Assembly: GCA_038045945.1 (NCBI GenBank)
Contig: JBBSXC010000001.1
Span: 64,001 to 128,000, forward strand
Source of the DNA: Nanobdellota archaeon
Lineage (GTDB): Archaea; Nanobdellota; Nanobdellia; Pacearchaeales; GW2011-AR1
Direction of reading: 5' to 3'
DNA length: 64,000 bases
Below the pieces are notes generated by a model that was not told the DNA's origin, searched no databases, and saw only the letters and a list, made by a program, of their open reading frames with translations. This document shows positions 13,874 to 58,292 of the stretch, one piece after another (the stretch's first letter is position 1; each line of letters starts with the position of its first letter). The position numbers and the translations under genes were made by a program.

Positions 13874-13980
13874 AAAATATTCGAGGTTTAGCATATTTAT
13901 AAAGGTTATGCAGAGACTATGTGCTTTTGAGGAGATAAATCCTTAAAAGTGTCTTTTACTCTTTTTTTGTCGTGACTTGG

Positions 13981-15408
13981 ATGTTGTTTAACTCTTTGCA
14001 GTTTTTGGTGTTTTTCTTAGTTGTTGTTTCATTATACTTTATTCTTCCTCATAAGTATCGTTGGTTTTTGTTGCTTGTTTCTAGTTACTATTTTTATATG
14101 AGTTATCTTCCAGAGTACGTTCTTGTTTTGTTGTTTGCTACAGTCATGGACTATTTTTTGGCTATTAGGATAGCTTCAATTAAGGATTATACTAAGAGAA
14201 AGTTATTCCTTGTTTTTAGTATTTTTTCTAATCTTGGTTTATTGTTTGTTTTTAAGTACTTTAATTTTTTTGGTGATTCTTTAAGGTCTCTTCTTAGTTT
14301 GGCTTCTTTGGATGTTAGTATTCCTTATAGCTCTTTGATTCTTCCTTTGGGTTTGTCTTTTCATACTTTTCAGAGTTTGGGTTATATGATCGAGGTTTAT
14401 AGGGGTGAGATTAAACCTCAGAAGCATTTTGGTATTTTTGCTTTGTATATTGCTTTTTTTCCTCAGCTTGTTGCTGGGCCTATTGAGAGGGCTAAGAATC
14501 TTATTCCTCAGTTTTATGTGAGTCACAAATTTGATTTTTTGAGAATTGTTGGTGGTCTTAAGATTGTTCTTTGGGGTTTTTTCTTAAAGGCTGTTCTTGC
14601 TGACCGTTTGGCTGTTCCTGTTGATTATGCTTTCACTCATCCTTCTTGGCCTGGTGGTATTTCTCTTCTTTTGGCTACAATATTTTTTGCTTTCCAAATC
14701 TATGGCGATTTTGCTGGTTATACTTTCATTGCTATTGGTACTGCTAAAATTATGGGTTTTTCTTTAATGGATAATTTTCGCAGGCCTTACTTGTCTGGGT
14801 CTTTCGTTGATTTTTGGCGTAGGTGGCATATTTCTTTGTCTTCTTGGTTTAGGGATTACTTGTATATTCCTCTAGGTGGTAGTAAGAAGGGTTTTGTTAG
14901 GACTCTTGTTAATTTGTTTATTGTTTTCTTACTTAGTGGTTTGTGGCATGGTGCTGCTTGGACTTTCGTTATTTGGGGTATTATTCACGGATTATTAGTA
15001 ATTGGTAATACTTTAGTTATCAAGCTTAGTGGTAAGAAAAAGAAGGTTAAGCATAATTTTGGTACAGGCATTATTAATTTCTTTAAGTCTGTCTTTGTTT
15101 TCTCTTTTGTTTGTTTTGCTTGGATTTTTTTCCGTGCTAATTCTGTTTCTGATGCTTTAATAATCATTAAAAGGATTTTTTCTTGGACTGCTCCTAAAAT
15201 TATTACTTTGAGTTTGACTTCTATTGATTTGTCTATTGCTGTTTTCTTAATTTTGTTTGTTATGATTGTTGATTTCTTTACTGAGAAAAGGTTTTTTGGC
15301 GATAAGACTCCTTGGTGGGCAGAATTATTGTTTTATCTTTTGGTTTTTTGGTTTATTATTATTTTAGGCTCCTTTGGGGGTAGGGAGTTTATTTACTTCC
15401 AATTTTAG
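13981..15408 (+). CDS. MBOAT O-acyltransferase (AlgI/DltB-like)
   Basis: MLFNS, LPLGLSFHTFQ, FFPQLVAGPIER, DFWRRWHISLSSWFRDYLYIPLGG, GLWHGA. Confidence 0.95.
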   Translation: MLFNSLQFLVFFLVVVSLYFILPHKYRWFLLLVSSYYFYMSYLPEYVLVLLFATVMDYFLAIRIASIKDYTKRKLFLVFSIFSNLGLLFVFKYFNFFGDSLRSLLSLASLDVSIPYSSLILPLGLSFHTFQSLGYMIEVYRGEIKPQKHFGIFALYIAFFPQLVAGPIERAKNLIPQFYVSHKFDFLRIVGGLKIVLWGFFLKAVLADRLAVPVDYAFTHPSWPGGISLLLATIFFAFQIYGDFAGYTFIAIGTAKIMGFSLMDNFRRPYLSGSFVDFWRRWHISLSSWFRDYLYIPLGGSKKGFVRTLVNLFIVFLLSGLWHGAAWTFVIWGIIHGLLVIGNTLVIKLSGKKKKVKHNFGTGIINFFKSVFVFSFVCFAWIFFRANSVSDALIIIKRIFSWTAPKIITLSLTSIDLSIAVFLILFVMIVDFFTEKRFFGDKTPWWAELLFYLLVFWFIIILGSFGGREFIYFQF

Positions 15409-15409
15409 T

Positions 15410-16570
15410 ATGGACAAAAGAATGTTTTTCTTATCGGTAATTGTTGTTTTGTTATTTTTAATGCCTTTGATTGTTCAGTTACTTTTGCCTTTTGGTTATG
15501 ATAGTTTTCGCATTTGGGATTCTGTTTCTAGGGCTTTTATTAATTCTGATAAGCCTTTTTATTCTAATATTAACATTAGTAGGGTCGAGGTTGGTGATTT
15601 GGCTCATGGTACCGAGTTTGAGGTTAATAGGTCTGTTACTTGGTTTACTGATAGTAGAGGTTTTAGGACGCAAGAGTCTATTGATGATTTTTATGATGTT
15701 GTTATTCTTGGTGACTCTACTATTGCTGGTGCTGGTTTGAGTCAGGAGGATATGCTTTATTCTGTTATTAGTAATAAGACTGGTTTGAGGGTTTATTCTA
15801 TGGGTCAGGTTGGTATTAATCGTTTTTTGAGTGATTCTCGTTTTGTTCTTAATCCTCCTAAAGTTTTGGTTTTTGGTGTTCTTGAGAGGAATATGAATAA
15901 TATTGATGTGTTGAATAAAAGTGTTATTGTGAGGAGTAAATACTTTTTTCCTATTAAGGAGAGGCTTGTTGATTTGCTTGATCGTTCTTTAAAACTTAAT
16001 TTTATTAGAAAGAAGATTTCTCCTTCTATTTCTTCTGATAATTTAGCTGTTAATAATAGTACTAGGATGGTTTTTTATGATGTTTCTCTTACTCAACAAT
16101 TAACTAATTCTTTTGTTGTTACACAGTTGGTTGATGAAATTTCTTCTTATAATGATTTGTTAGCTGATCGTAATATTACTTTGATATTTTTGCCTGTTCC
16201 TAATAAGGAGACTGTTTATTATGATGATTTGCCTCAGAATTTTAAGAATAGGTATTCTAAGTCTAATTTTACTTCTCATATTTCTTTCTTAACTAATAAT
16301 GCTGGTGTTAAAACTGTTGATTTATTACCTATTTATAATAAAGAAAAATCTCAGAGTTTTTTGTATCAGTTGGATGATACTCATTGGAATAGGGATGGTG
16401 TTTTGATTGCTGCTGATGAGGTTATTAAACTGATGAATGTTTCCGACATTAATCACTCTGTTTTTAAGAAGCCTATTGTTAGTGATTTGGTTTTTGAGTT
16501 GTTAGTTTATGAGGCTTTTTTCTTACTTTTCGTTCTTGCTTTTCTTCTTAGAATTTTTGATCGTAAATGA
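15410..16570 (+). CDS. AlgJ/AlgX-like SGNH acetyltransferase
   Basis: ILGDST, PVPNK, DTHWNRDG; directly follows the MBOAT gene. Confidence 0.8.
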   Translation: MDKRMFFLSVIVVLLFLMPLIVQLLLPFGYDSFRIWDSVSRAFINSDKPFYSNINISRVEVGDLAHGTEFEVNRSVTWFTDSRGFRTQESIDDFYDVVILGDSTIAGAGLSQEDMLYSVISNKTGLRVYSMGQVGINRFLSDSRFVLNPPKVLVFGVLERNMNNIDVLNKSVIVRSKYFFPIKERLVDLLDRSLKLNFIRKKISPSISSDNLAVNNSTRMVFYDVSLTQQLTNSFVVTQLVDEISSYNDLLADRNITLIFLPVPNKETVYYDDLPQNFKNRYSKSNFTSHISFLTNNAGVKTVDLLPIYNKEKSQSFLYQLDDTHWNRDGVLIAADEVIKLMNVSDINHSVFKKPIVSDLVFELLVYEAFFLLFVLAFLLRIFDRK

Positions 16571-26494: not shown

Positions 26495-26632
26495 TGAGCC
26501 TATGCGGATTTGAACCGCAGACCTCCGGCTTTCTTAGCACGTATATGCCACTAAAGCATTAGTTCGCTCAAGTTGCTTGAGAGAACAACGTCTTATAAGA
26601 CCGGCGTTCTAACCGGGCTGAACTATAGGCTC
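26495..26632 (-). tRNA. tRNA-Ile(TAT) with 63-nt intron (26531-26593) at position 37/38
   Basis: Exons fold into a cloverleaf; BHB motif with CTTA/TAAG helix and two 3-nt bulges. Confidence 0.9.
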
Positions 26633-42003: not shown

Positions 42004-43278
42004 ATGGAAAGAAAAATGATTAGCGATTTGAAGGAGGGCGAGCATTCTTTGATTAAGGGTTGGGTTCATGAAATTCGTGATTTGTCTAAGATGAAGTTTA
42101 TTCTACTTAGGGATTCTTCGGGTATTGTCCAGTGCATTATTAAGGATGATAAGTTGATGAAGGATTCTTCTAGCATTAGTTTGGAGAGCGTTATTGAGAT
42201 TGAAGGAGCGGTGAATAAGGCTTCTGTTAAGGCTGATCTTGCTCGTAAAGATGTTGAACTTCATGCTAAGTCTATTAAGATTCTTAGTTTGGCTGAAACT
42301 TTACCTATTCAAGTTAATGAAAAAACAATAACTACTGAATTACCAACAAGGCTTGATCATCGTTCTTTAGATGTTAGGAAGCCTAAAATTTCAGCTATTT
42401 TTAAGATTCAGAGTGAAATAGCTAATTCTTTCAGAAAGTTTTTTTATAAGAATGGTTTTACTGAGATTCAACCACCTTTTATTATTGGAGCAGCAAGCGA
42501 GGGTGGAAGTGAAGTTTTTGAGGTTAAATATTTTGATAAGAAGGCTTACTTAGCTCAAAGTCCTCAATTGTATAAACAAATGATGGCTTGTGCTTTTGAG
42601 AAAGTTTTTGCTTTAGGCCCTGCTTGGAGAGCAGAGAAGCATAATACTACTAGACACATTAATGAGATAAGGCAAATGGATGTAGAAGTAGCCTTCACCG
42701 ACCAAATGCAAATAATGAAGTTGCAAGAGGAGGTTTTACAATTCATAATTCAGAACGTTAAAGAAAGATGTTCAAGAGAACTAGAAATATTGGGAAGAAG
42801 TGATATAAAAGCTCCTAAGGGTGTATACTTACATTATGAGGATGCTATTAAGAAGTCTGGTGGAAAAATTGGTGAGGATTTTACTCCTGAACAGGAAAGG
42901 AAGCTTTGTGACATGTACCCTGGGGACATAGTGTTTACTCATTCTTGGCCTACAAGCATTAAAGTTTTTTATATAATGCCTAAGGATGGTAAGAAGAATG
43001 CTACTGAAAGTTGTGGTTTTGATTCTTTGTATGGCGGCGTTGAGATTTCTAGTGGTGGTCAACGTATTCACATTCCAGAATTATTAATTGATAGGATTAA
43101 AGCTAAGGGTTTGAACCCTAAAGATTTTAAAACTTATATTGATAGTTTCCGTTACGGTGCTCCACCTCATAGCGGTTGGGCTTTAGGTCTTGAAAGACTT
43201 ACCCAAATGATTTGCGGTCTTGATAATATTAAAGAAGCAACATTATTCCCTAGAGACAGGGATAGGTTGACACCTTAG
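42004..43278 (+). CDS. aspS: Aspartate--tRNA ligase (archaeal type)
   Basis: LAQSPQLYKQ, RAEKHNTTRH, EISSGGQR, YGAPPH, FPRD. Confidence 0.93.
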   Translation: MERKMISDLKEGEHSLIKGWVHEIRDLSKMKFILLRDSSGIVQCIIKDDKLMKDSSSISLESVIEIEGAVNKASVKADLARKDVELHAKSIKILSLAETLPIQVNEKTITTELPTRLDHRSLDVRKPKISAIFKIQSEIANSFRKFFYKNGFTEIQPPFIIGAASEGGSEVFEVKYFDKKAYLAQSPQLYKQMMACAFEKVFALGPAWRAEKHNTTRHINEIRQMDVEVAFTDQMQIMKLQEEVLQFIIQNVKERCSRELEILGRSDIKAPKGVYLHYEDAIKKSGGKIGEDFTPEQERKLCDMYPGDIVFTHSWPTSIKVFYIMPKDGKKNATESCGFDSLYGGVEISSGGQRIHIPELLIDRIKAKGLNPKDFKTYIDSFRYGAPPHSGWALGLERLTQMICGLDNIKEATLFPRDRDRLTP

Positions 43279-43282
43279 AACC

Positions 43283-44617
43283 ATGGTTAAAAAAGTAGAA
43301 AAAGTTTCTGTTGATACTCACAGCGAATCATTCATTAGTATTTCTGATGCTATCAAGCAAGGTTCTGGTCGTGTTTCTATTAGAGGTTGGGTTTATCGTG
43401 AGAGGGATGGAAAAGAATTAAGATTCATAGTCCTAAGAGACTCAAGTAATATAATACAGTGCGTGTTGAAAAAGGAAAAGTTTGAAAAACAATGGGGAGA
43501 GATAAGTAAAATAGGAATTGAAAGCTCACTAGAAATAGTTGGGGAAATAAAAGCAGACGCTCGAGCACCAACAGGTTACGAAATATCAGCAGAAAAAATA
43601 ATAATAGTGCAAATAGCTGAGGATTTCCCCATTAACAAAGATTTGAACGAGGAGTTGCTTGGAGACAGAAGGCATTTGTGGCTTCGTAGTAGAAAGATGA
43701 CTTCTATTATGAAGATTAGAAGCAGGTATATACAGGCTAGAGAAGCATTCTTTCATAAAGAGGGATTTTATCGTTTTGATACTCCTATACTTCAACCAAC
43801 ACAAAGCGAAGGTGGAAGTACAGTTTTTGAAGTAAAATATTATGATAAAAAAACGTTTTTAGCCCAAACATGGCAGTTATACGGCGAATCAGCAATTTTC
43901 GCTCTTGAAAAAGTTTACAATATGGGTCCAACTTTCAGGGCTGAGAAGAGTAATACTTCAAGACATTTATCTGAATTTTGGATGGCAGAAGTAGAAGTGG
44001 CCTGGTGGGGTCTTAAAGAAATATCTGAGTTTGCAAAAAAAGAATTAAAACATTGTATAAGCATAGTGGTAAAAGAATGTGAGGAAGAGTTTAAGATATT
44101 AGGAGTGGATGCAAAAAAATTGTTAGAGATGACAAAGAAAGAGTGGCCTACAATTAAGTATCGTGATGCACTAAAATTAATAAAAGAAAAAGATGGGATG
44201 ACAGTACCGTTCGGCAAGGATTTAAGGACAATTGAAGAACAAACAATAATGAAACATTTTGATACTCCTGTTGTTGTTACTCATTATCCTAAAGAAATAA
44301 TGGCTTTTTATAAGCCGAGTGACCCAAAAAGTCCTGATGAAGCATTATGCTTTGATATGTTAGCTCCACAGATAGGCATAGAGATAGTTGGAGGAAGCCA
44401 AAGAGACTTGAATGTTGAGGAGATGTCAAAAAAACTAAAAGCTGATGGTGAAGACCCAAAAAATTATCAGTTTTATTTTGATACTAGGAAGTATGGAAGT
44501 GTGCCTCATTCAGGATACGGAGTAGGAATCGAGAGGGTAATACAGTGGATTTGTGGTCTTGAAAGTATTAAGGATGCTATTGCCTTCCCTAGGACTATGA
44601 ATAGGACAACTCCTTAA
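43283..44617 (+). CDS. asnS: Asparagine--tRNA ligase
   Basis: RHLWLR, QLYGE, RHLSEFWMAE, EIVGGSQR, YGSVPHSG. Confidence 0.93.
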   Translation: MVKKVEKVSVDTHSESFISISDAIKQGSGRVSIRGWVYRERDGKELRFIVLRDSSNIIQCVLKKEKFEKQWGEISKIGIESSLEIVGEIKADARAPTGYEISAEKIIIVQIAEDFPINKDLNEELLGDRRHLWLRSRKMTSIMKIRSRYIQAREAFFHKEGFYRFDTPILQPTQSEGGSTVFEVKYYDKKTFLAQTWQLYGESAIFALEKVYNMGPTFRAEKSNTSRHLSEFWMAEVEVAWWGLKEISEFAKKELKHCISIVVKECEEEFKILGVDAKKLLEMTKKEWPTIKYRDALKLIKEKDGMTVPFGKDLRTIEEQTIMKHFDTPVVVTHYPKEIMAFYKPSDPKSPDEALCFDMLAPQIGIEIVGGSQRDLNVEEMSKKLKADGEDPKNYQFYFDTRKYGSVPHSGYGVGIERVIQWICGLESIKDAIAFPRTMNRTTP

Positions 44618-44720
44618 ATAATTGCGATAATTACTAAAAAGATTATGAGTGCGCCTTAATGATTGATCAGTATAGTTTGTTTCAGCAATTCTTAAATAAC
44701 GTTCTAACAACTAATTTTTT

Positions 44721-45524
44721 ATGAAGAGACGTTATTTTCCTTTGACTCGTGGTAAAAGGTTGAGGGAAGCAAATTTTGATTCCACTTGGGATAGTTATCT
44801 TAAAGGTAGAAGCGATTATGATCGTAATGCTTTGGTAGAGCATTATATGCCTTTAGTTGATGATGTTATTAATTCTTTAATTAGGACTTTGCCCCCTTAT
44901 ATTGATGTTCAAGAGTTGTCAGGTCCTGGGAATATGGGTCTTCTTCAAGCAGTTATTAATTGTGATTCTAAAAAACTAACAGTTTTTGATCATTATGCTA
45001 GGAAGAGAATAAAGGGTTCTGTTCTTGATCATTTGAGAAGTTTAGACTTTATGCCTAGGACTAGAAGAATATTTTTGAAGAAGTCAAAGAAGGCTGAGTT
45101 AAATCTCAATAATAAGCTTGGTAGAAAATGCACTGATGAGGAATTATGTAAATATATGGGTATGAGTTATGATGATTATTATAAGAAGATGTCTGAGGCT
45201 CGCGAAGTTGAGAGTTTGGAGTATGATGATTTTGGTACAGAAACAGCCTCTAATGATTTGAGAAGAAGGAGACTTTTATTAGAAGATTTAGATTTAGATC
45301 CTCAAATAGCAACTACTCTAAGAGAAGTTTCTAGTATAGCCAGGGATAATCTTTCTGATGAAGATTATAAGATGCTAACTTTAAGAATGGAGAATAGAGG
45401 TAATGAGGAGATAGGTATAAGTATTCGTGGTTTAGCTCCTTCCACAATTTGTGCTAGATTAAGAAAAGCGGTTTATCCTTGTATTAAGGAGAAATTGGGT
45501 GAAGGTTATGAAGAAGCAGCATAA
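44721..45524 (+). CDS. Sigma-70 family, FliA/WhiG-like protein
   Basis: Region 2 RNALVEHYMPLV...GNMGLLQAV...FDHYARKRIKGSVLDHLRSLDFMPR; region 3 LGRKCTDEELCKYMGMS; region 4-like LSDEDY...EEIG...TICARL. Confidence 0.85.
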   Translation: MKRRYFPLTRGKRLREANFDSTWDSYLKGRSDYDRNALVEHYMPLVDDVINSLIRTLPPYIDVQELSGPGNMGLLQAVINCDSKKLTVFDHYARKRIKGSVLDHLRSLDFMPRTRRIFLKKSKKAELNLNNKLGRKCTDEELCKYMGMSYDDYYKKMSEAREVESLEYDDFGTETASNDLRRRRLLLEDLDLDPQIATTLREVSSIARDNLSDEDYKMLTLRMENRGNEEIGISIRGLAPSTICARLRKAVYPCIKEKLGEGYEEAA

Positions 45525-46332
45525 ATTAGGAGTTTTTCTTGAAGGTGGTGGCATTAAGACTTTTTATGGAGGTGGAGTTATTGATCAATTAAAGGCTTTT
45601 GGGATAAAGCCCGATTATTATGCTGGCATAAGTGCTTCTGCTGGTACAATATTTGGTAACATTTTTTCTTGTAGTGAAGAAATAATTGATATTTTTGGTA
45701 AGAGGTGTGATAATAATAAGAAAAACTTTTATTTCTTTAGAAAGCCTCACTTTCCTCATAACCATATGATGGAGAATTCTCTTATAAAAATTTTTGATAA
45801 GCACATAAAGAATCCTAATTCTAAATCAGAATTCAAAATTATTGCCGGAATAACGAATAATAACTATTCTTGGGTTAAGACCCATTTGGTTCTTTATTTG
45901 ATGATAATGAAAAATCTTCTTCGCATAAACCTCTTTGATTATTTCAGAAAAATGTTTTCTGTTAAAGAATCAAGTATTACCTCTGATGATAACTTAGATA
46001 AAAAAGTTATTGTTAATTTTATTATGGGTTCTTCAAGCATCTATCCTTTCATCAAACCCCATTATCATGATGGTAAACTCTTGCTCGAGGCTAATTGTTT
46101 AGATCTAGATTACCAGAATTGTCTAAGTAATTGTGATAAAGGTATAATAATTCATAATTCTACTGGTAAAAGTTTTGTTAATGGTAAATTTTTACATGTT
46201 TATTCTTCTACTAGTTTGCCCAGTAACATTTTAGATTATACTAGCAAAGAAAAGCTTGTTAGTTTAAGAAAAGTTGGTATGCTAGAGGTAAAAAAGCAGA
46301 AATTTTTTGTTGAAAAGTTTATTTCTTCTTAA
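45508..46332 (+). CDS. Patatin-like phospholipase family protein
   Basis: LEGGGIK, AGISAS, GSSSIYP; overlaps the sigma gene stop. Confidence 0.75.
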   Translation: MKKQHKLGVFLEGGGIKTFYGGGVIDQLKAFGIKPDYYAGISASAGTIFGNIFSCSEEIIDIFGKRCDNNKKNFYFFRKPHFPHNHMMENSLIKIFDKHIKNPNSKSEFKIIAGITNNNYSWVKTHLVLYLMIMKNLLRINLFDYFRKMFSVKESSITSDDNLDKKVIVNFIMGSSSIYPFIKPHYHDGKLLLEANCLDLDYQNCLSNCDKGIIIHNSTGKSFVNGKFLHVYSSTSLPSNILDYTSKEKLVSLRKVGMLEVKKQKFFVEKFISS

Positions 46333-46400
46333 TTTTCTCTTCGTTCTTGTCAACTTCTTGTATCTTTTAAGTGGTAATGTACAGTTTATTAAAAAAAGTG

Positions 46401-46418
46401 TCGTCGATTTATCGACGA
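46401..46418. promoter_or_regulatory. Palindromic operator candidate upstream of ftsZ
   Basis: TCGTCGAT-TT-ATCGACGA, ~25 nt before a TATA-like ATATAAA. Confidence 0.5.
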
Positions 46419-46643
46419 TAAAACAACGTAGCTATAGGGTAAAAATATATAAAGAAGAAGTGCTTCGTGTTTGTATTAATTTGACCCGCCAAGATTAAAT
46501 TAATACCGTTCGTTTAATGAAGAGTATTTCTTAAGAGTTATTTGTAACTCTTTTTATTAATAGGATAAAGAACAAACAAGTATTTAAACTTGCCGTTTTA
46601 TATTCTATCTAACAACACAAAAAGGAGGATACAAAAAAAGAAA

Positions 46644-47717
46644 ATGTTAAATTTTGCGGAAGAGGCGATTAAGAATTCTGCTGCTTACAGCATCAACTTT
46701 GATGAACTTAAAGCCGGAAAAGCCAATATCAAGGTTTTCGGTTGTGGTGGAGCTGGTTGTAATATGATTACATGGCTCTTCAATAAGGGTATCAATGGTG
46801 CTACTGTTTATGGTTTGAACACTGATGCACTTCACCTTAGTATTACTAAGGCTGATGAAAAAATCTTAATAGGTAAGGAACTTACTAGAGGTCTTGGATG
46901 TGGTGGTTTTCCTGCTAAAGGAAGAGAAGCTGCTAAAGAGTCAATCTCTGATATTAAGAAGGGTGTTAGTGGTGCAGACATGGTCTTCGTTCTTGCTGGT
47001 ATGGGTGGAGGTACAGGTACTGGTTCAGCACCTGTTGTTGCTCAACTTGCTAAGGAAGCTGGCTCAGTAGTTATTGGTGTTGTCACTATGCCTTGGGAGA
47101 TGGAGAAGGCTAGAATTGACAAAGCAGAATTTGGACTTCAGGAGCTTAGAGATGCAACGGACACTACAATTGTCCTTGACAATAACAGGCTTACTGATAT
47201 TGCTGGTAATTTGCCTATTGAGCAAGCATTCGCTGTTGCTAATGAACTGGTTAGTACAATGATTAAGGGAATAGTGGAAACTATTACTCTCCCATCATTA
47301 ATCAACCTGGACTATGCAGACGTTTCGGCCATCATGAAGGGTGGTGACGTTGCTGTCATTGGTATTGGTGAAAGCGACACTCAGAATAGAGTAGATGAAG
47401 CTGTTCGTCAAGCATTGACTCACCCATTACTGGATGTTGACTATAGGGGCGCTACTGGTGCTCTTGTTCACATTAGTGGTGGTACTGACTTAAAGCTTGA
47501 AGAATTTAGTAATATTGGTATGTTAGTTACTGAAAACCTTTCACCAGATGCTCAAGTGATCATCGGTGCGAGAATCAACAAGGATTTTGCAGGTAAAGTA
47601 AGAGTTATTACCATCATGACTGGTGTTAAGAGCCCTTATGTTCTTGGCAAACAAAGAACTAACTCCTATGAGTCTAGCTCAGAGATGTCAGAGCTTGGAA
47701 TAGAGGTTTTAAGATAA
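46644..47717 (+). CDS. ftsZ: Cell division protein FtsZ
   Basis: [26 protein letters not shown]; SD AGGAGG upstream. Confidence 0.97.
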
Positions 47718-47774
47718 TAGTTTCCAAATTATTATCATACTCCAGTATTCGGCAAGCTCATGATTTGTTTTTTT

Positions 47775-47840
47775 GAGGATCCGCCCATAAGGGAAGCGTT
47801 TCGCGACGCGTCCTAAGGGATTGGGCGGCCTCCATTTTTT
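47775..47840 (+). other. GC-rich stem-loop followed by a T-run (terminator or small RNA)
   Basis: GAGG/CCTC, CCGCCCA/TGGGCGG, AGG/CCT, GCGT/ACGC, then a T-run. Confidence 0.6.
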
Positions 47841-47892
47841 TATGTTTTATGGCTGCAAGTATGAAAGGTTTTTTAGGCTACTAGTCTTTTTT

Positions 47893-48405
47893 TTAGAATA
47901 TTTTTATTAATGTGTTGCTGAAGTATCCTGTGTTTGAGCAGTGGTATACTTTGTGTGTTACTTGATTTAGATTTCCGTAATAGATTAAGTTGTTTTTTTC
48001 TAATAATTCATCGTTTTCTTTTGCGTATTTTACTTGTGGTGGTTTGAACTTTTCTGGTTTGTAGCCTAAACATTCTTGGAATGCTTTTATTCCTTCATTC
48101 ATTTCTTCTTGTGTTCTTTGTGTTTCGAATTCTCTATAAGTATGGCGTATTCCGTGCAGCCCTAATGTTTTATTGAAGCTTTTAATGTAGTTGCACCATT
48201 GTGTGTTATTTGCTATTGACTGGTTTTGGTATAGTGGTATAATCCATAAAACATCGCTTTTTCTTATTAGTTCTTCATCGCATTGTATTAGTGGGTTTAG
48301 ATCGTCTAACTCTGCTCGGTTTATTAGTCTGATTGTAAATAATGCTAATATCAGTATTAGTATAGTAGCTGTTGTTATTATCAATCCCTTTTTTGTTTTG
48401 TTCAT
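47893..48405 (-). CDS. DUF2334/polysaccharide deacetylase-like protein
   Basis: N-terminal TM, LDDLNP, LGLHGIRH, FKPP. Confidence 0.7.
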   Translation of the reverse strand: MNKTKKGLIITTATILILILALFTIRLINRAELDDLNPLIQCDEELIRKSDVLWIIPLYQNQSIANNTQWCNYIKSFNKTLGLHGIRHTYREFETQRTQEEMNEGIKAFQECLGYKPEKFKPPQVKYAKENDELLEKNNLIYYGNLNQVTHKVYHCSNTGYFSNTLIKIF

Positions 48406-48415
48406 TAGAAAGAAT

Positions 48416-48967
48416 TTATTGTCTTTTGTTCTTATCCCATTCTTCAAAGTATAGTGTGTCTTCTATTTTTGGTTTCGCTGTCGCTTTTTTTCTGTCTCCT
48501 AACTTTACTGGTGCTTCGTAACCTATTGGTATTATTGCTTCCACTTCTACTTCTTTTGGTATTTTTAGTAATCTTTTTATTATTCTGTCTGAGAAGTGTC
48601 CTATCCAACAACTTGCCATTCCTGCTTCACTTATTGCTAGTAGCATGTTGTTTATTGCTGCTCCTGCTTCTTGGTGTGCGAACATTTCTCCTTTTTTTTC
48701 AAAGTTTCTTAATAGTTGTTCTTTTCGCGAGCATACGACTATTATTGCTGATACATCTGCCAGGAATCCTTGTTGGCATGCGTCTGCTATTTGCATAATC
48801 TTTTTTTGTTCGCTTACTATTATGTAGTTTAGTGTTGGTATGTTTCCTGCTAGTGGTACTTGGTTTGCGTAGTCTATTATTTCTGCTACTTCTTTCCAAC
48901 TCACAGTTTTTTCTTTTATGTATGATCTTACTGATTTTCTCTTTTTTAATAAGTCGTAAAAATTCAT
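48416..48967 (-). CDS. Nitroreductase family protein
   Basis: RKSVRSY, PLAGN, NMLLA...GMASCWIG, IPIGY. Confidence 0.9.
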   Translation of the reverse strand: MNFYDLLKKRKSVRSYIKEKTVSWKEVAEIIDYANQVPLAGNIPTLNYIIVSEQKKIMQIADACQQGFLADVSAIIVVCSRKEQLLRNFEKKGEMFAHQEAGAAINNMLLAISEAGMASCWIGHFSDRIIKRLLKIPKEVEVEAIIPIGYEAPVKLGDRKKATAKPKIEDTLYFEEWDKNKRQ

Positions 48968-52197: not shown

Positions 52198-52303
52198 ACA
52201 AAACAAACAAGAAAATACGCGTATTTAAGTTTAATTGTTAATAGGATGAATCCTGCGTTCTAGTATAGAAGTGTTTAAATTGTTCTTAGTCATGATACAC
52301 TCC

Positions 52304-53464
52304 ATGGATTCTAGACCTATTCCTGAAAGAATAAGTGAAAGAGTTTATAATGGTAGGAGTTTAGCTGAGATGCTCAATTTTTCTAGGGATTATGGTGCTA
52401 GTGATATTAAGTTTGTTGTTGGTTTGCCACCTTATTTTAGAAGGGGTGAAGGATTAGTTCATAATCTTGGTGATGGTAAGGGCGCTTTTGAGCCAGTAAA
52501 TCTTGAAACTATGAATAAGTTTGTTGATTGTTTAACAACACAAAAGCAGAGGGACAAGTTATTATCTGGAGAGGAGGATTTAGATATGTCAGTGATAATG
52601 CCAGAGAATGACGGGGCAAGATCTTATAGACTAAACTTGGCTATGCAGAAAGGAACGCCAATGATAATGATAAGAGTAGTTCCAGATAAAATAAGGCCTT
52701 TATCAGATCTTGGACTTCCAAAAACTATAATTGACTATTTTAGGACTTTACAAAGGGGTATTGTTTTGGTTACTGGGGCTACTGGTGCTGGTAAGTCTTC
52801 AACTTTAGCTGCGATGGTGGATGATATAAGAGTTAGGAATAGTGATGAGATAATAACTATTGAAGACCCTATAGAGTATGTTCATAATTCTGATTCATCA
52901 TTAATAATTCAGAGGGAGTTAAGAAGGGATACTCAGTCATATAGTTCGGCATTGAAGTCTGCTATGAGACAAGACCCTGACGTTATAGCTATAGGAGAAA
53001 TAAGGGATACTGAAACCGTGAGAGCATGCTTAGAATCATCTTATACCGGTCACTTAGTCTTAGGAACTTTACACACTGCTGATGCTATACAAAGTGTTAA
53101 TAGAATGATCGATTTGTTTCCTGAAAGTTTACAAAGAGATATATCGTCTCAGCTTTCCGATACTTTAAGAATTGTTATTTCTCAGTCTTTAGTTCCAACA
53201 ATTAATGGTGGTAGAAAACTTGTGGCTGAGATTTTGAGGAATGACCCTTTTTCTGCTATATCTAAACAAATCCGTGATAGGGATCCTCCTGGAAAAATTT
53301 TGTCTAGTATGCAAACAGGTAAGAGGTATGGGATGGTAGTTATGGAAGACGCATTGTTTGACGCTTATCAGGCAAATCTTATCGATAAAGTAACAGCTTT
53401 TGGTTATGCTATAAGAAAAGATGAGATGAAAAGAAAACTAGATTTTGGCGAGTTAGGCAAATAA
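52304..53464 (+). CDS. pilT: Type IV pilus retraction ATPase PilT/PilU family (bacterial type)
   Basis: GASDI..VVGLPPYFR, TGATGAGKSSTL, TIEDPIEY, RQDPDVI.IGEIRD, TGHLVLGTLHT, MQTG..YGM. Confidence 0.88.
   Translation: MDSRPIPERISERVYNGRSLAEMLNFSRDYGASDIKFVVGLPPYFRRGEGLVHNLGDGKGAFEPVNLETMNKFVDCLTTQKQRDKLLSGEEDLDMSVIMPENDGARSYRLNLAMQKGTPMIMIRVVPDKIRPLSDLGLPKTIIDYFRTLQRGIVLVTGATGAGKSSTLAAMVDDIRVRNSDEIITIEDPIEYVHNSDSSLIIQRELRRDTQSYSSALKSAMRQDPDVIAIGEIRDTETVRACLESSYTGHLVLGTLHTADAIQSVNRMIDLFPESLQRDISSQLSDTLRIVISQSLVPTINGGRKLVAEILRNDPFSAISKQIRDRDPPGKILSSMQTGKRYGMVVMEDALFDAYQANLIDKVTAFGYAIRKDEMKRKLDFGELGK

Positions 53465-54830: not shown

Positions 54831-58292
<3,462 letters not shown>

What the first reader, a model, noticed from the sequence alone, without database searches (positions are those of the whole stretch)
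44721..45524. Bacterial FliA/WhiG-like sigma factor in an archaeal chromosome
Seen: a full-length 267-aa protein with recognisable sigma regions 2 and 3 and a diverged region 4. It sits between archaeal asnS and ftsZ, behind an archaeal TATA box (TTAAATA ~25 nt upstream), and has backbone-like T-rich codons, so it looks domesticated rather than contaminating. Established: archaeal RNAP initiates with TBP/TFB and does not use sigma factors. Inference: either repurposed as a DNA-binding regulator, or an effector/decoy acting on a bacterial host's RNAP or anti-sigma FlgM. The core-binding region 2 is the best-preserved part.
Basis: partly seen in the sequence, partly recalled or inferred. Interest (0 to 1): 0.8.

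Follow-up and report, generated by a model that had tools for sequence, protein, structure and literature searches.

The report
Orphan FliA-like sigma in DPANN archaeon
A tiny groundwater archaeon carries an intact, well-adapted copy of a bacterial flagellar-type sigma factor gene although it has only an archaeal RNA polymerase; such genes are already known in this group of archaea, and what they do there is still unknown.

Summary
ORF 44721-45524 (+) encodes a 267-aa FliA/WhiG-like sigma-70-family protein. Sigma70_r2 and r3 pass Pfam's cut-offs; no r4 match. The AlphaFold model is confident, and all 48 listed Foldseek matches are sigma factors.

The host is a Pacearchaeota-type DPANN archaeon. 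Archaeal RpoB and fused RpoA lie about 9 kb away; TBP and TFB are present; no bacterial beta' or FlgM was found.

The gene is not a chimera. Its codon usage is typical of the genome. Its TATA box sits at -29..-23, the genome-wide register for leaderless genes.

It is a lone copy. It is absent from the same site in the same-genus genome, and its nearest relative among 1.84 billion representatives is 33% identical. It falls among bacterial FliA proteins.

Region 2 is as conserved as in ordinary FliA proteins; region 4 has lost both -35 contacts.

Sigma genes in DPANN are published (Castelle 2021). The sigma-2 domain occurs in 156 of 401 phylum genomes searched. This scan noted such genes 78 times on other DNA.

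Verdict: a new member of a known kind, probably an accessory regulator; binding to archaeal RNAP remains untested.

The parts
44687..44698 (+). Archaeal promoter: A-A at -34/-33 (BRE-like position) and TATA box TTAAATA at -29..-23 from the ATG; implies a leaderless mRNA
   Evidence: Sequence. Genome-wide positional peak of TATA-like hexamers at -30..-26 (353 against 19-57 per other bin, 457 genes) and A-enrichment at -34..-32.
44721..45524 (+). FliA/WhiG-like sigma-70-family gene, 267 aa plus stop
44754..45068 (+). Sigma-2 domain (aa 12-116; regions 1.2-2.4): 29 of 35 family-conserved columns identical, including R96, D103, R106, R113, R116 and the G70/G73/L74/A77 helix
   Evidence: Pfam r2; model pLDDT 82-97 in the 10-residue blocks covering aa 11-120
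45069..45215 (+). Sigma-3 domain (aa 117-165)
   Evidence: Pfam r3, 32.9 bits; helices H113-133, H139-146, H150-162
45216..45281 (+). Low-confidence acidic/basic linker (aa 166-187), at the place of the sigma 3.2 linker
   Evidence: pLDDT below 50 for aa 166-187
45282..45521 (+). Diverged sigma-4-like helical domain (aa 188-267): family motif S-E-S-R-x-S-Q reads A-P-S-T-I-C-A, and both E. coli sigma-28 -35 phosphate contacts are replaced (K208->E229, R220->T242)
   Evidence: No PF04545 match; helices H194-210, H213-223, H228-234, H240-266 at block-mean pLDDT 80-95
45508..46332 (+). Patatin-like phospholipase gene overlapping the sigma stop by 17 nt; probably co-transcribed. Its orthologue in the same-genus genome G001 follows asnS directly, with no sigma gene
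   Evidence: Pfam Patatin, 45.3 bits; tblastn 68.6% identity starting at this ATG
43283..44617 (+). asnS, upstream flank of the insertion site
   Evidence: NF003037, 458 bits; orthologue 62% identical in G001

Best explanation
This is a horizontally acquired bacterial FliA/WhiG-type (group 3) sigma gene that has been domesticated as a species-specific accessory gene in a Pacearchaeota-type DPANN archaeon. Shown: it is transcribed, if at all, by the archaeal TBP/TFB machinery from a canonical TATA box placed for a leaderless mRNA, probably together with the overlapping patatin-like gene. The protein keeps the sigma-2 and sigma-3 domains at a normal family level of conservation, but has lost the sigma-4 residues that contact the -35 element. 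The cell has no bacterial core RNA polymerase, no FlgM and no enrichment of sigma-28 promoters, so it cannot act as a classical sigma-28. Inferred: it works as an accessory transcription regulator through its sigma-2/sigma-3 module. That module would bind a -10-like DNA element, and it may touch the RNA polymerase clamp coiled-coil, without replacing TBP/TFB. My split within this reading is about 0.35 for RNAP-independent DNA binding and 0.2 for action with a clamp contact. Identity and domestication: about 0.95. Mechanism: about 0.55.
For: Identity:
- r2 and r3 pass Pfam's cut-offs. The best models are FliA/WhiG.
- Best solved relatives by sequence are E. coli FliA (6pmi_F, 73 bits, aa 32-260) and Aquifex sigma-28 (1rp3_A).
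- AlphaFold model: mean pLDDT 84.6. All 48 listed Foldseek matches are sigma factors, aligned over 225-295 columns.
- In the tree it lies inside the FliA clade (SH-aLRT 99).

Archaeal host and no bacterial core:
- Archaeal RpoB scores 1270 bits and RpoA' 1024 bits, on the same contig. GatD and GatE are present, as are TBP and TFB.
- All four rpoC-model matches fall within the one archaeal rpoA ORF.

Domestication:
- The TATA box sits in the genome-wide register.
- Codon score is at the 37th percentile.
- A 267-codon open frame has P about 1e-9 by chance.
- Logan contigs from two samples bridge asnS-sigma-patatin-ftsZ with 0 differences and the same depth as the flanks.

Function centred on sigma-2:
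- 29 of 35 conserved sigma-2 columns are identical, and 22 of 71 true family members score the same or lower. For sigma-4 the figures are 6 of 13 columns and 5 of 71 members.
- The three near-invariant -10-contact arginines are kept: E. coli R74, R84 and R94 correspond to R96, R106 and R116 here. Both -35 contacts are lost.

Context: sigma-2 domains occur in 156 of 401 phylum genomes searched and in 0 of 4 control archaea, so the lineage retains such proteins.
Against: - No target, partner or expression data exist. No RNA run was listed.
- It is a lone copy. It is absent at the same site in the same-genus genome G001, which is 79% complete.
- The nearest relative in the exhaustive search is 33% identical, so purifying selection cannot be measured.
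- Its end branch is long: 1.55 against a median of 0.99.
- Seven of the eleven E. coli -10 contact residues listed by Shi et al. are replaced, and an eighth is conservatively changed (R98->K120).
- Sigma-28 -10 motifs are not enriched: GCCGATAA occurs 12 times against 11.4 +/- 3.5 in shuffles, and 4 of 69 CCGATAA sites lie upstream of genes, as chance predicts.
- The A1 alignment consists of the proteins most similar to ours, and the best-scoring stretch is sigma-2. This favours a high sigma-2 agreement.
- The AlphaFold model used an alignment of true FliA proteins, which leans it towards a sigma-4 fold.
Confidence: 0.55

Rival explanations
1. Genuine sigma on archaeal RNAP. Sigma-2 docks on the RpoA clamp coiled-coil, the homologue of the bacterial beta' clamp helices, and the protein directs promoter-specific initiation or melting. 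This would be a hybrid bacterial/archaeal initiation pathway.
For: Sigma-2, the core-binding and -10-melting module, is kept at a normal family level while sigma-4 decays. The RpoA clamp coiled-coil segment (aa about 208-259) is almost invariant in 27 Pacearchaeota-type sequences. Sigma-2 domains are retained in 156 of 401 genomes of the phylum. Castelle et al. 2021 leave the role in transcription open.
Against: TBP and TFB are present, and the promoter architecture across the genome is uniformly TATA-based. No sigma-28-type motif is enriched. The sigma-4 contacts are lost. The gene is dispensable in the sister species. To my knowledge (recalled, no call) there is no experimental precedent.
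Confidence: 0.15
2. Functionless passenger: a transferred gene that is drifting and has not yet been deleted.
For: Lone copy, absent from the same-genus genome. No relative above 33% identity. Long end branch. Degenerate sigma-4. No partner or motif found.
Against: The 267-codon frame is intact in a 35% GC genome, P about 1e-9 by chance. The TATA box is correctly placed. Codon usage is fully adapted, which implies long residence. Decay is uneven, sparing sigma-2. The genome is a reduced one of 847 kb, where useless DNA is expected to be lost; that last step is inference.
Confidence: 0.15
3. Cargo of a mobile element or virus, serving that element and not the cell.
For: The gene is present in one species of the genus and absent in the other. 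The genome has several integrated-element scars (earlier notes). Neighbours of other FliA-like genes in the order are mostly unannotatable: 9 of 10 scanned had no Pfam family.
Against: The insertion is a single gene between asnS and patatin. There is no integrase and no meaningful flanking repeat, only 10-nt chance matches. Composition is indistinguishable from the genome.
Confidence: 0.05
4. Secreted effector or decoy that acts on a bacterial partner's RNAP or on FlgM.
For: Sigma-2 is well preserved. Bacterial-type genes, including a PilT-family ATPase, lie nearby.
Against: There is no hydrophobic N-terminal signal-like segment (sequence). No link to a secretion system was seen. The loss of the -35 contacts would cripple it as a sigma in bacteria. 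A bacterial host for this lineage is not established; that is recalled, not tested.
Confidence: 0.04
5. Assembly chimera or bacterial contamination.
For: None found. All four runs belong to one study, so the support is not fully independent.
Against: X1 record 3 (43652-47290) and X2 record 10 (43652-48500) span both junctions with 0 differences, at depths of 19.6 and 12.2, equal to the flanks. GC and codon usage are typical. The promoter is archaeal. The identical protein is on record from 3 contigs, the longest of 506 kb.
Confidence: 0.02

Closest known systems
Sigma-70-family genes of DPANN archaea (fam00359 of Castelle et al. 2021, Front Microbiol, PMC8204110; passage read)
   Same: A bacterial-type sigma-70-family gene on a contig with archaeal marker genes. 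TBP and TFB are present, no anti-sigma factor is found, and the function is unknown. In my survey the sigma-2 domain occurs in 156 of 401 genomes of the phylum.
   Different: The paper stresses Woesearchaeota, whereas this host is Pacearchaeota-type (names given by sources). This gene is a compact FliA-type singleton. It does not group with the other sigma-like genes of its order and has no BLASTP similarity to the genome's second, RpoD/RpoS-like sigma gene. Whether it is listed in fam00359 could not be checked, because the supplementary tables are closed.
Bacterial FliA / sigma-28 (E. coli 6PMI, Aquifex 1RP3, P. aeruginosa 9WSM) and WhiG (6PFV)
   Same: Same length class and the same sigma-2/sigma-3/sigma-4 layout without region 1.1. 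The best sequence and fold matches are these proteins. It lies inside the FliA clade. It keeps R96, R106 and R116, which correspond to the E. coli -10 contacts R74, R84 and R94.
   Different: It scores below the curated family cut-off (104.5 against 189.6 bits). Both -35 contacts are lost, and seven of the eleven listed -10 contact residues are replaced. No bacterial core RNAP, FlgM or sigma-28 promoter enrichment is found in the genome. Its own promoter is archaeal.
Other sigma-like genes noted by this scan in DPANN genomes (e.g. e1-4720118, e1-5119842, e1-4455378)
   Same: Orphan, diverged, dispensable FliA/WhiG- or RpoD-like genes under archaeal promoters, wedged between housekeeping genes.
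   Different: There is no sequence look-alike of this gene among the earlier findings. This one is full-length without added domains, and its sigma-2 is unusually well kept.

Membership tests
FliA/WhiG (sigma-28, group 3 sigma-70 family) | Sigma-2 domain (Pfam PF04542) present | tested here: met
   24.9 bits against a cut-off of 24; 27.5 bits in the six-frame search; 29 of 35 family-conserved columns identical
FliA/WhiG (sigma-28, group 3 sigma-70 family) | Sigma-3 domain (PF04539) present | tested here: met
   32.9 bits against a cut-off of 25.3, aa 120-179
FliA/WhiG (sigma-28, group 3 sigma-70 family) | Sigma-4 domain (PF04545) with the -35 recognition helix | tested here: inconclusive
   No HMM match. 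The model predicts four helices at block-mean pLDDT 80-95, and Foldseek alignments run nearly full length, but the model was built from a FliA alignment. Conserved helix residues are replaced: E->P240, R->T242, Q->A245. The E. coli -35 contacts K208 and R220 correspond to E229 and T242 here.
FliA/WhiG (sigma-28, group 3 sigma-70 family) | Score above NCBIfam TIGR02479's curated cut-off | tested here: not met
   104.5 bits against 189.6. In the order-wide survey, 0 of 301 genomes had a match over the cut-off.
FliA/WhiG (sigma-28, group 3 sigma-70 family) | Phylogenetic placement within the FliA clade | tested here: met
   Inside a clade of 78 rows (70 representatives, 7 order ORFs, ours) with SH-aLRT 99. 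Caveats: quick LG+G4 tree of 104 rows, long branches, and only 70 of the 151 non-self listed hits were used. The sister P0034 is a long branch whose relatives are Verrucomicrobiota/Opitutales.
FliA/WhiG (sigma-28, group 3 sigma-70 family) | Works with bacterial core RNAP (beta' clamp helices, beta flap) in the same cell | tested here: not met
   Only archaeal RpoB and fused RpoA are found. All four rpoC-model matches lie in that one ORF. The genome is 93% complete.
FliA/WhiG (sigma-28, group 3 sigma-70 family) | Cognate anti-sigma FlgM | tested here: not met
   Best PF04316 match scores 12.2 bits, E 0.21, against a cut-off of 25
FliA/WhiG (sigma-28, group 3 sigma-70 family) | Sigma-28 promoters (TAAA-N15-GCCGATAA) in front of a regulon | tested here: not met
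   GCCGATAA: 12 observed against 11.4 +/- 3.5 in shuffles. Composite motif: 8 against 5.8 +/- 2.2. 4 of 69 CCGATAA sites lie within 150 nt upstream of ORFs, against 5.6% of the sequence space. The -10 consensus is quoted in PMC12784957; the full composite is recalled. Bacterial flagellar genes were not searched for.
Sigma-70-family genes of DPANN archaea (Castelle et al. 2021) | Sigma-70-domain protein encoded on a contig with archaeal, taxonomically informative genes, not mis-binned | tested here: met
   Same contig as archaeal rpoB/rpoA, gatD/gatE and an intron-bearing tRNA. Junctions are bridged by contigs from two samples. RpoA relatives are named Pacearchaeota/Nanoarchaeota by their sources.
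Sigma-70-family genes of DPANN archaea (Castelle et al. 2021) | Listed in protein family fam00359 | not testable with these tools

The most novel reading that the evidence does not exclude
The sigma-2 domain is kept because it docks on the clamp coiled-coil of the archaeal RNA polymerase, the site that universally binds NusG/Spt5 and, in archaea, TFE. This compact FliA-derived protein would then modulate or direct initiation by an archaeal RNAP. That would be the first working sigma-archaeal polymerase pair, and a model for the sigma-2 proteins found in about two-fifths of the genomes searched in this phylum.
Probability: 0.2. Interest if true: 0.85.

Novelty: new member of a known kind. Interest (0 to 1): 0.3.

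Why it matters
Archaeal transcription is thought to run without sigma factors. Even so, sigma-2 domains are retained in a large share of DPANN genomes: 156 of 401 searched here. Castelle et al. 2021 leave their mechanism open. This gene adds no new phenomenon. It is, however, a convenient test case, being short (267 aa), unfused and full-length, with a sigma-2 as well kept as in bacterial FliA, a degenerate sigma-4 and a clean archaeal promoter. If its sigma-2 were shown to bind the archaeal clamp coiled-coil, that would show how a bacterial initiation factor can be grafted onto an archaeal polymerase. If it binds only DNA, that would show that sigma domains are being reused as ordinary regulators.

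Tried and rejected
- Complex prediction of RpoA aa 1-320 (alignment A2) with sigma aa 12-116 (alignment A1): no verdict, score 0.27 and 0.17 against a mark of 0.32, and the controls were not run. This is no evidence either way.
- Expression: no RNA holder was listed for window 43800-46700. The 4 DNA runs all come from one groundwater study.
- dN/dS: not possible. The word-indexed search found only the protein itself plus two proteins at 36-37% identity over 46% of the query. The exhaustive search found nothing above 33% identity. The four runs show no variant positions.
- Remnant of the gene in the same-genus genome: none. The best tblastn hit has E 0.36 and lies elsewhere in the locus, not in the 303-nt spacer.
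- Donor: the best named hits are Planctomycetota, Verrucomicrobiota, Armatimonadota and Alcaligenes. Only 6 of the 20 clusters looked up carry any name. The tree is unresolved around our long branch, with 60 of 101 inner branches open, so I name no donor.
- The search for related loci with alignment A1 failed because no stretch was conserved enough. I used the single protein P0034 instead.
- Shared context of other FliA-like genes in the order: of 10 neighbouring proteins scanned, 9 have no Pfam family and 1 is a DEAD-box helicase.
- Flanking repeats around the insertion: only short chance matches.
- Bacterial-type promoter scan of the region: 10 sites against 9.0 +/- 3.5 in shuffles, so no signal.
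The one candidate passage was irrelevant.
- Mapping of the aromatic residue that stacks on -11A, described for P. aeruginosa sigma-28: dropped, because the chain and paper numbering could not be reconciled.

Full report
**1. The observation**

ORF 44721-45524 on the + strand starts with ATG and encodes 267 residues.
- Pfam finds Sigma70_r3 (32.9 bits, cut-off 25.3, aa 120-179) and Sigma70_r2 (24.9 bits, cut-off 24, aa 38-108). There is no r4 match at E<=0.1.
- A six-frame search of the whole genome with the r4 model found 9 matches, none in this ORF.
- The best NCBIfam models are all FliA/WhiG. TIGR02479 scores 104.5 bits, below its curated cut-off of 189.6. The WhiG model aligns over aa 14-251.
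- By sequence, the closest solved structures are E. coli FliA in the sigma-28 holoenzyme (6pmi_F, 73 bits, aa 32-260) and Aquifex sigma-28 (1rp3_A).
- An AlphaFold2 model built on 72 aligned sequences has mean pLDDT 84.6. It shows three helical domains and a low-confidence linker at aa 166-187.
- All 48 listed Foldseek matches in the PDB are sigma factors, aligned over 225-295 columns. TM-scores are only 0.33-0.48, as expected for three domains on flexible linkers.

The description 'regions 2 and 3 recognisable, region 4 diverged' is therefore correct.

**2. The host is an archaeon and the contig is sound**

- The window carries archaeal rpoB (1270 bits to the archaeal model) and an rpoA that joins A' and A'' in one 1152-aa protein, 9-17 kb downstream of the sigma gene. 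It also carries gatD and gatE and a 138-nt tRNA gene, apparently with an intron.
- The genome has 847,022 bases in 7 contigs and is 93% complete with 1% contamination. It has TBP and TFB.
- The bacterial rpoC model matches only inside the archaeal rpoA ORF. No FlgM is found; the best match scores 12.2 bits against a cut-off of 25.
- Relatives of RpoA are named Pacearchaeota or Nanoarchaeota by their sources.
- Logan contigs assembled independently from two groundwater samples (X1 record 3, 43652-47290; X2 record 10, 43652-48500) span asnS-sigma-patatin-ftsZ with no differences. Their depth equals that of the flanks: 19.6 against 19.7, and 12.2 against 12.3. All four runs belong to one study, and two may be the source of the assembly.
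- GC content is flat along the window.

**3. The gene is domesticated**

- Its synonymous-codon score lies at the 37th percentile of 628 ORFs. GC is 0.342 against a mean of 0.350, and GC3 is 0.231 against 0.264.
- In 457 genes with free upstream DNA, TATA-like hexamers starting at -30..-26 from the ATG number 353, against 19-57 in every other 5-nt bin. A is enriched at -34..-32. The genome therefore uses leaderless mRNAs with a fixed BRE/TATA register.
- The sigma gene has TTAAATA at -29..-23 and A-A at -34/-33. Exact TTAAATA occurs 27 times in that bin and at most 5 times in any other.
- A 267-codon open frame has P about 1.2e-9 at this base composition.
- The next gene, patatin-like (45.3 bits), most likely starts at ATG 45508, 17 nt inside the sigma ORF. 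That is where its similarity to the orthologue in G001 begins.

**4. It is a lone copy**

- The genome holds one copy.
- The genome also holds a second, unrelated sigma gene on contig C5. It is 288 aa and RpoD/RpoS-like, with r2 at 57 bits, and has no BLASTP similarity to ours.
- In the same-genus genome G001 (79% complete), asnS (62% identical) is followed after 303 nt directly by patatin (69% identical). No sigma gene or remnant is there.
- With our protein as query, 4 of 41 related genomes including our own gave a match. The three others are weak (18-30 bits) and fall in longer or different sigma-like proteins.
- The word-indexed search of 5.8 billion proteins found only the protein itself and two proteins at 36-37% identity over 46% of the query.
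- The exhaustive search of 1.84 billion representatives gave 9146 hits at E<=0.001, but only the protein itself at E<=1e-30. The best other hit scores 108 bits at 33% identity.
- Named clusters among the top hits are bacterial: Planctomycetota, Verrucomicrobiota, Alcaligenes FliA and Armatimonadota. Only 6 of the 20 clusters looked up carry a name.
- A quick LG+G4 tree of 104 rows used ours, 33 sigma ORFs of the order, and 70 of the 151 non-self listed hits, chosen as those in A1 that cover most of the profile. It puts ours inside the FliA clade (SH-aLRT 99), away from most sigma genes of its order and not beside the other FliA-like genes of the order.
- The tree sister, P0034, is also a long branch. 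P0034's relatives are Verrucomicrobiota/Opitutales.
- I infer a bacterial origin but name no donor.

**5. What is conserved**

- Against the 71 family members of A1, ours is identical at 41 of the 58 columns that are >=70% conserved.
- By domain: 29 of 35 in sigma-2 (22 of 71 members score the same or lower), 6 of 10 in sigma-3 (8 of 71), and 6 of 13 in sigma-4 (5 of 71).
- Shi et al. (bioRxiv 10.1101/2020.01.02.893370; abstract, outline and section 6 read) list the E. coli sigma-28 DNA contacts. I mapped them through the alignment.
- The three arginines that are near-invariant in the family are kept: R74, R84 and R94 correspond to R96, R106 and R116 here.
- R98 becomes K120. H26, R34, R58, Q63, T69, Q73 and R95 are replaced.
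- Both -35 contacts are lost. These are K208 and R220, whose double mutant cut transcription in that paper; here they are E229 and T242.
- Caveat: A1 consists of the proteins most similar to ours, which favours sigma-2 agreement.

**6. No sign of a sigma-28 system**

GCCGATAA is the -10 consensus quoted in PMC12784957 (passages read). It occurs 12 times, against 11.4 +/- 3.5 in shuffles. The composite motif occurs 8 times against 5.8 +/- 2.2. CCGATAA sites lie upstream of ORFs at the chance rate, 4 of 69. This is a weak negative, because the specificity residues have changed.

**7. What is known**

- Castelle et al. 2021 (PMC8204110; the passage on sigma factors read) report sigma-70 genes (fam00359) in DPANN, 'particularly prevalent in Woesearchaeota'. 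They ruled out mis-binning, found no anti-sigma factors, and call the mechanism unclear.
- My surveys agree. The FliA/WhiG model matches at E<=1e-5 in 89 of 301 genomes of the order, none over the cut-off.
- The sigma-2 domain passes Pfam's cut-off in 156 of 401 high-quality genomes of the phylum and in 0 of 4 control archaea. Two of the matching genomes, G551 and G630, are flagged unpublished; without them the count is 154 of 399.
- This scan has 78 earlier notes on sigma genes in DPANN, in at least 72 genomes. None resembles this sequence.
- Literature searches found no experimental work on such proteins. Subscription journals and supplements were not searchable.

**8. Verdict**

The gene is a real, domesticated, species-specific FliA-type sigma gene of bacterial origin, which makes it a new member of a known kind.
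- Most likely it is an accessory regulator that works through its sigma-2/sigma-3 module (0.55).
- The boldest reading not excluded is that sigma-2 docks on the archaeal RNAP clamp coiled-coil (0.2). The single complex job gave no verdict (see Tried and rejected).
- A functionless passenger remains possible (0.15).

Noticed in passing
window 54831-58292 (-): RNAP subunits A' and A'' are fused into one 1152-aa protein: A' model over aa 3-530 and beyond, A'' model over aa 799-1120. Nearly all of the 120 listed relatives, named Pacearchaeota/Nanoarchaeota, have the same length of about 1140-1220 aa with all five Rpb1 domains (three shorter entries of 662-1049 aa), so the fusion appears to be lineage-wide.
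   Followed up: partly
G000:C5:57703-58569 (L005:1354-2220): The same genome has a second sigma-70-family gene of 288 aa, RpoD/RpoS-like (TIGR02997 135.7 bits, r2 57 bits, r4 about 45 bits). It has no BLASTP similarity to the window's gene. It also matches the MzaA anti-phage sigma model at 128 bits, below that model's cut-off.
   Followed up: partly
whole genome G000 (statistic over 457 genes): There is a very sharp promoter register: TATA-like hexamers start at -30..-26 from the ATG, with A-rich positions at -34..-32. Most genes are therefore leaderless.
   Followed up: yes
window 52271-53464 (+): A PilT/PilU-family ATPase above NCBIfam's curated cut-off (329 bits against 319) lies 7 kb downstream of the sigma gene. 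No link to the sigma gene was shown.
   Followed up: no
L019 (G254:C8), L023 (G029:C64), L048 (G115:C22), G282:C8: Several genomes of the order carry two FliA/WhiG-like sigma genes in tandem, and many sigma-like ORFs have long N-terminal extensions (353-586 aa). In the phylum survey a sigma-2 domain sits in open frames of up to 1763 aa (G612).
   Followed up: no
window 42004-44617 and L055 (G001:C3:16000-33077): aspS (non-discriminating type) and asnS lie in tandem, together with gatD/gatE. The same-genus genome has four class-II Asp/Asn-type synthetase paralogues within about 10 kb.
   Followed up: no
window 26495-26632 (-): A 138-nt tRNA gene, presumably with an intron, is found by Rfam (54.9 bits) but not by ARAGORN.
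   Followed up: no
window 13972-16570 (+): An MBOAT acyltransferase followed by an AlgX-like SGNH protein. This is a bacterial-looking O-acetylation gene pair in the archaeal chromosome.
   Followed up: no
L055 11928-12230 (G001): At the place where the window has the sigma gene, the sister species has a 303-nt spacer. It holds a small ORF for a hydrophobic peptide of about 63 aa.
   Followed up: no
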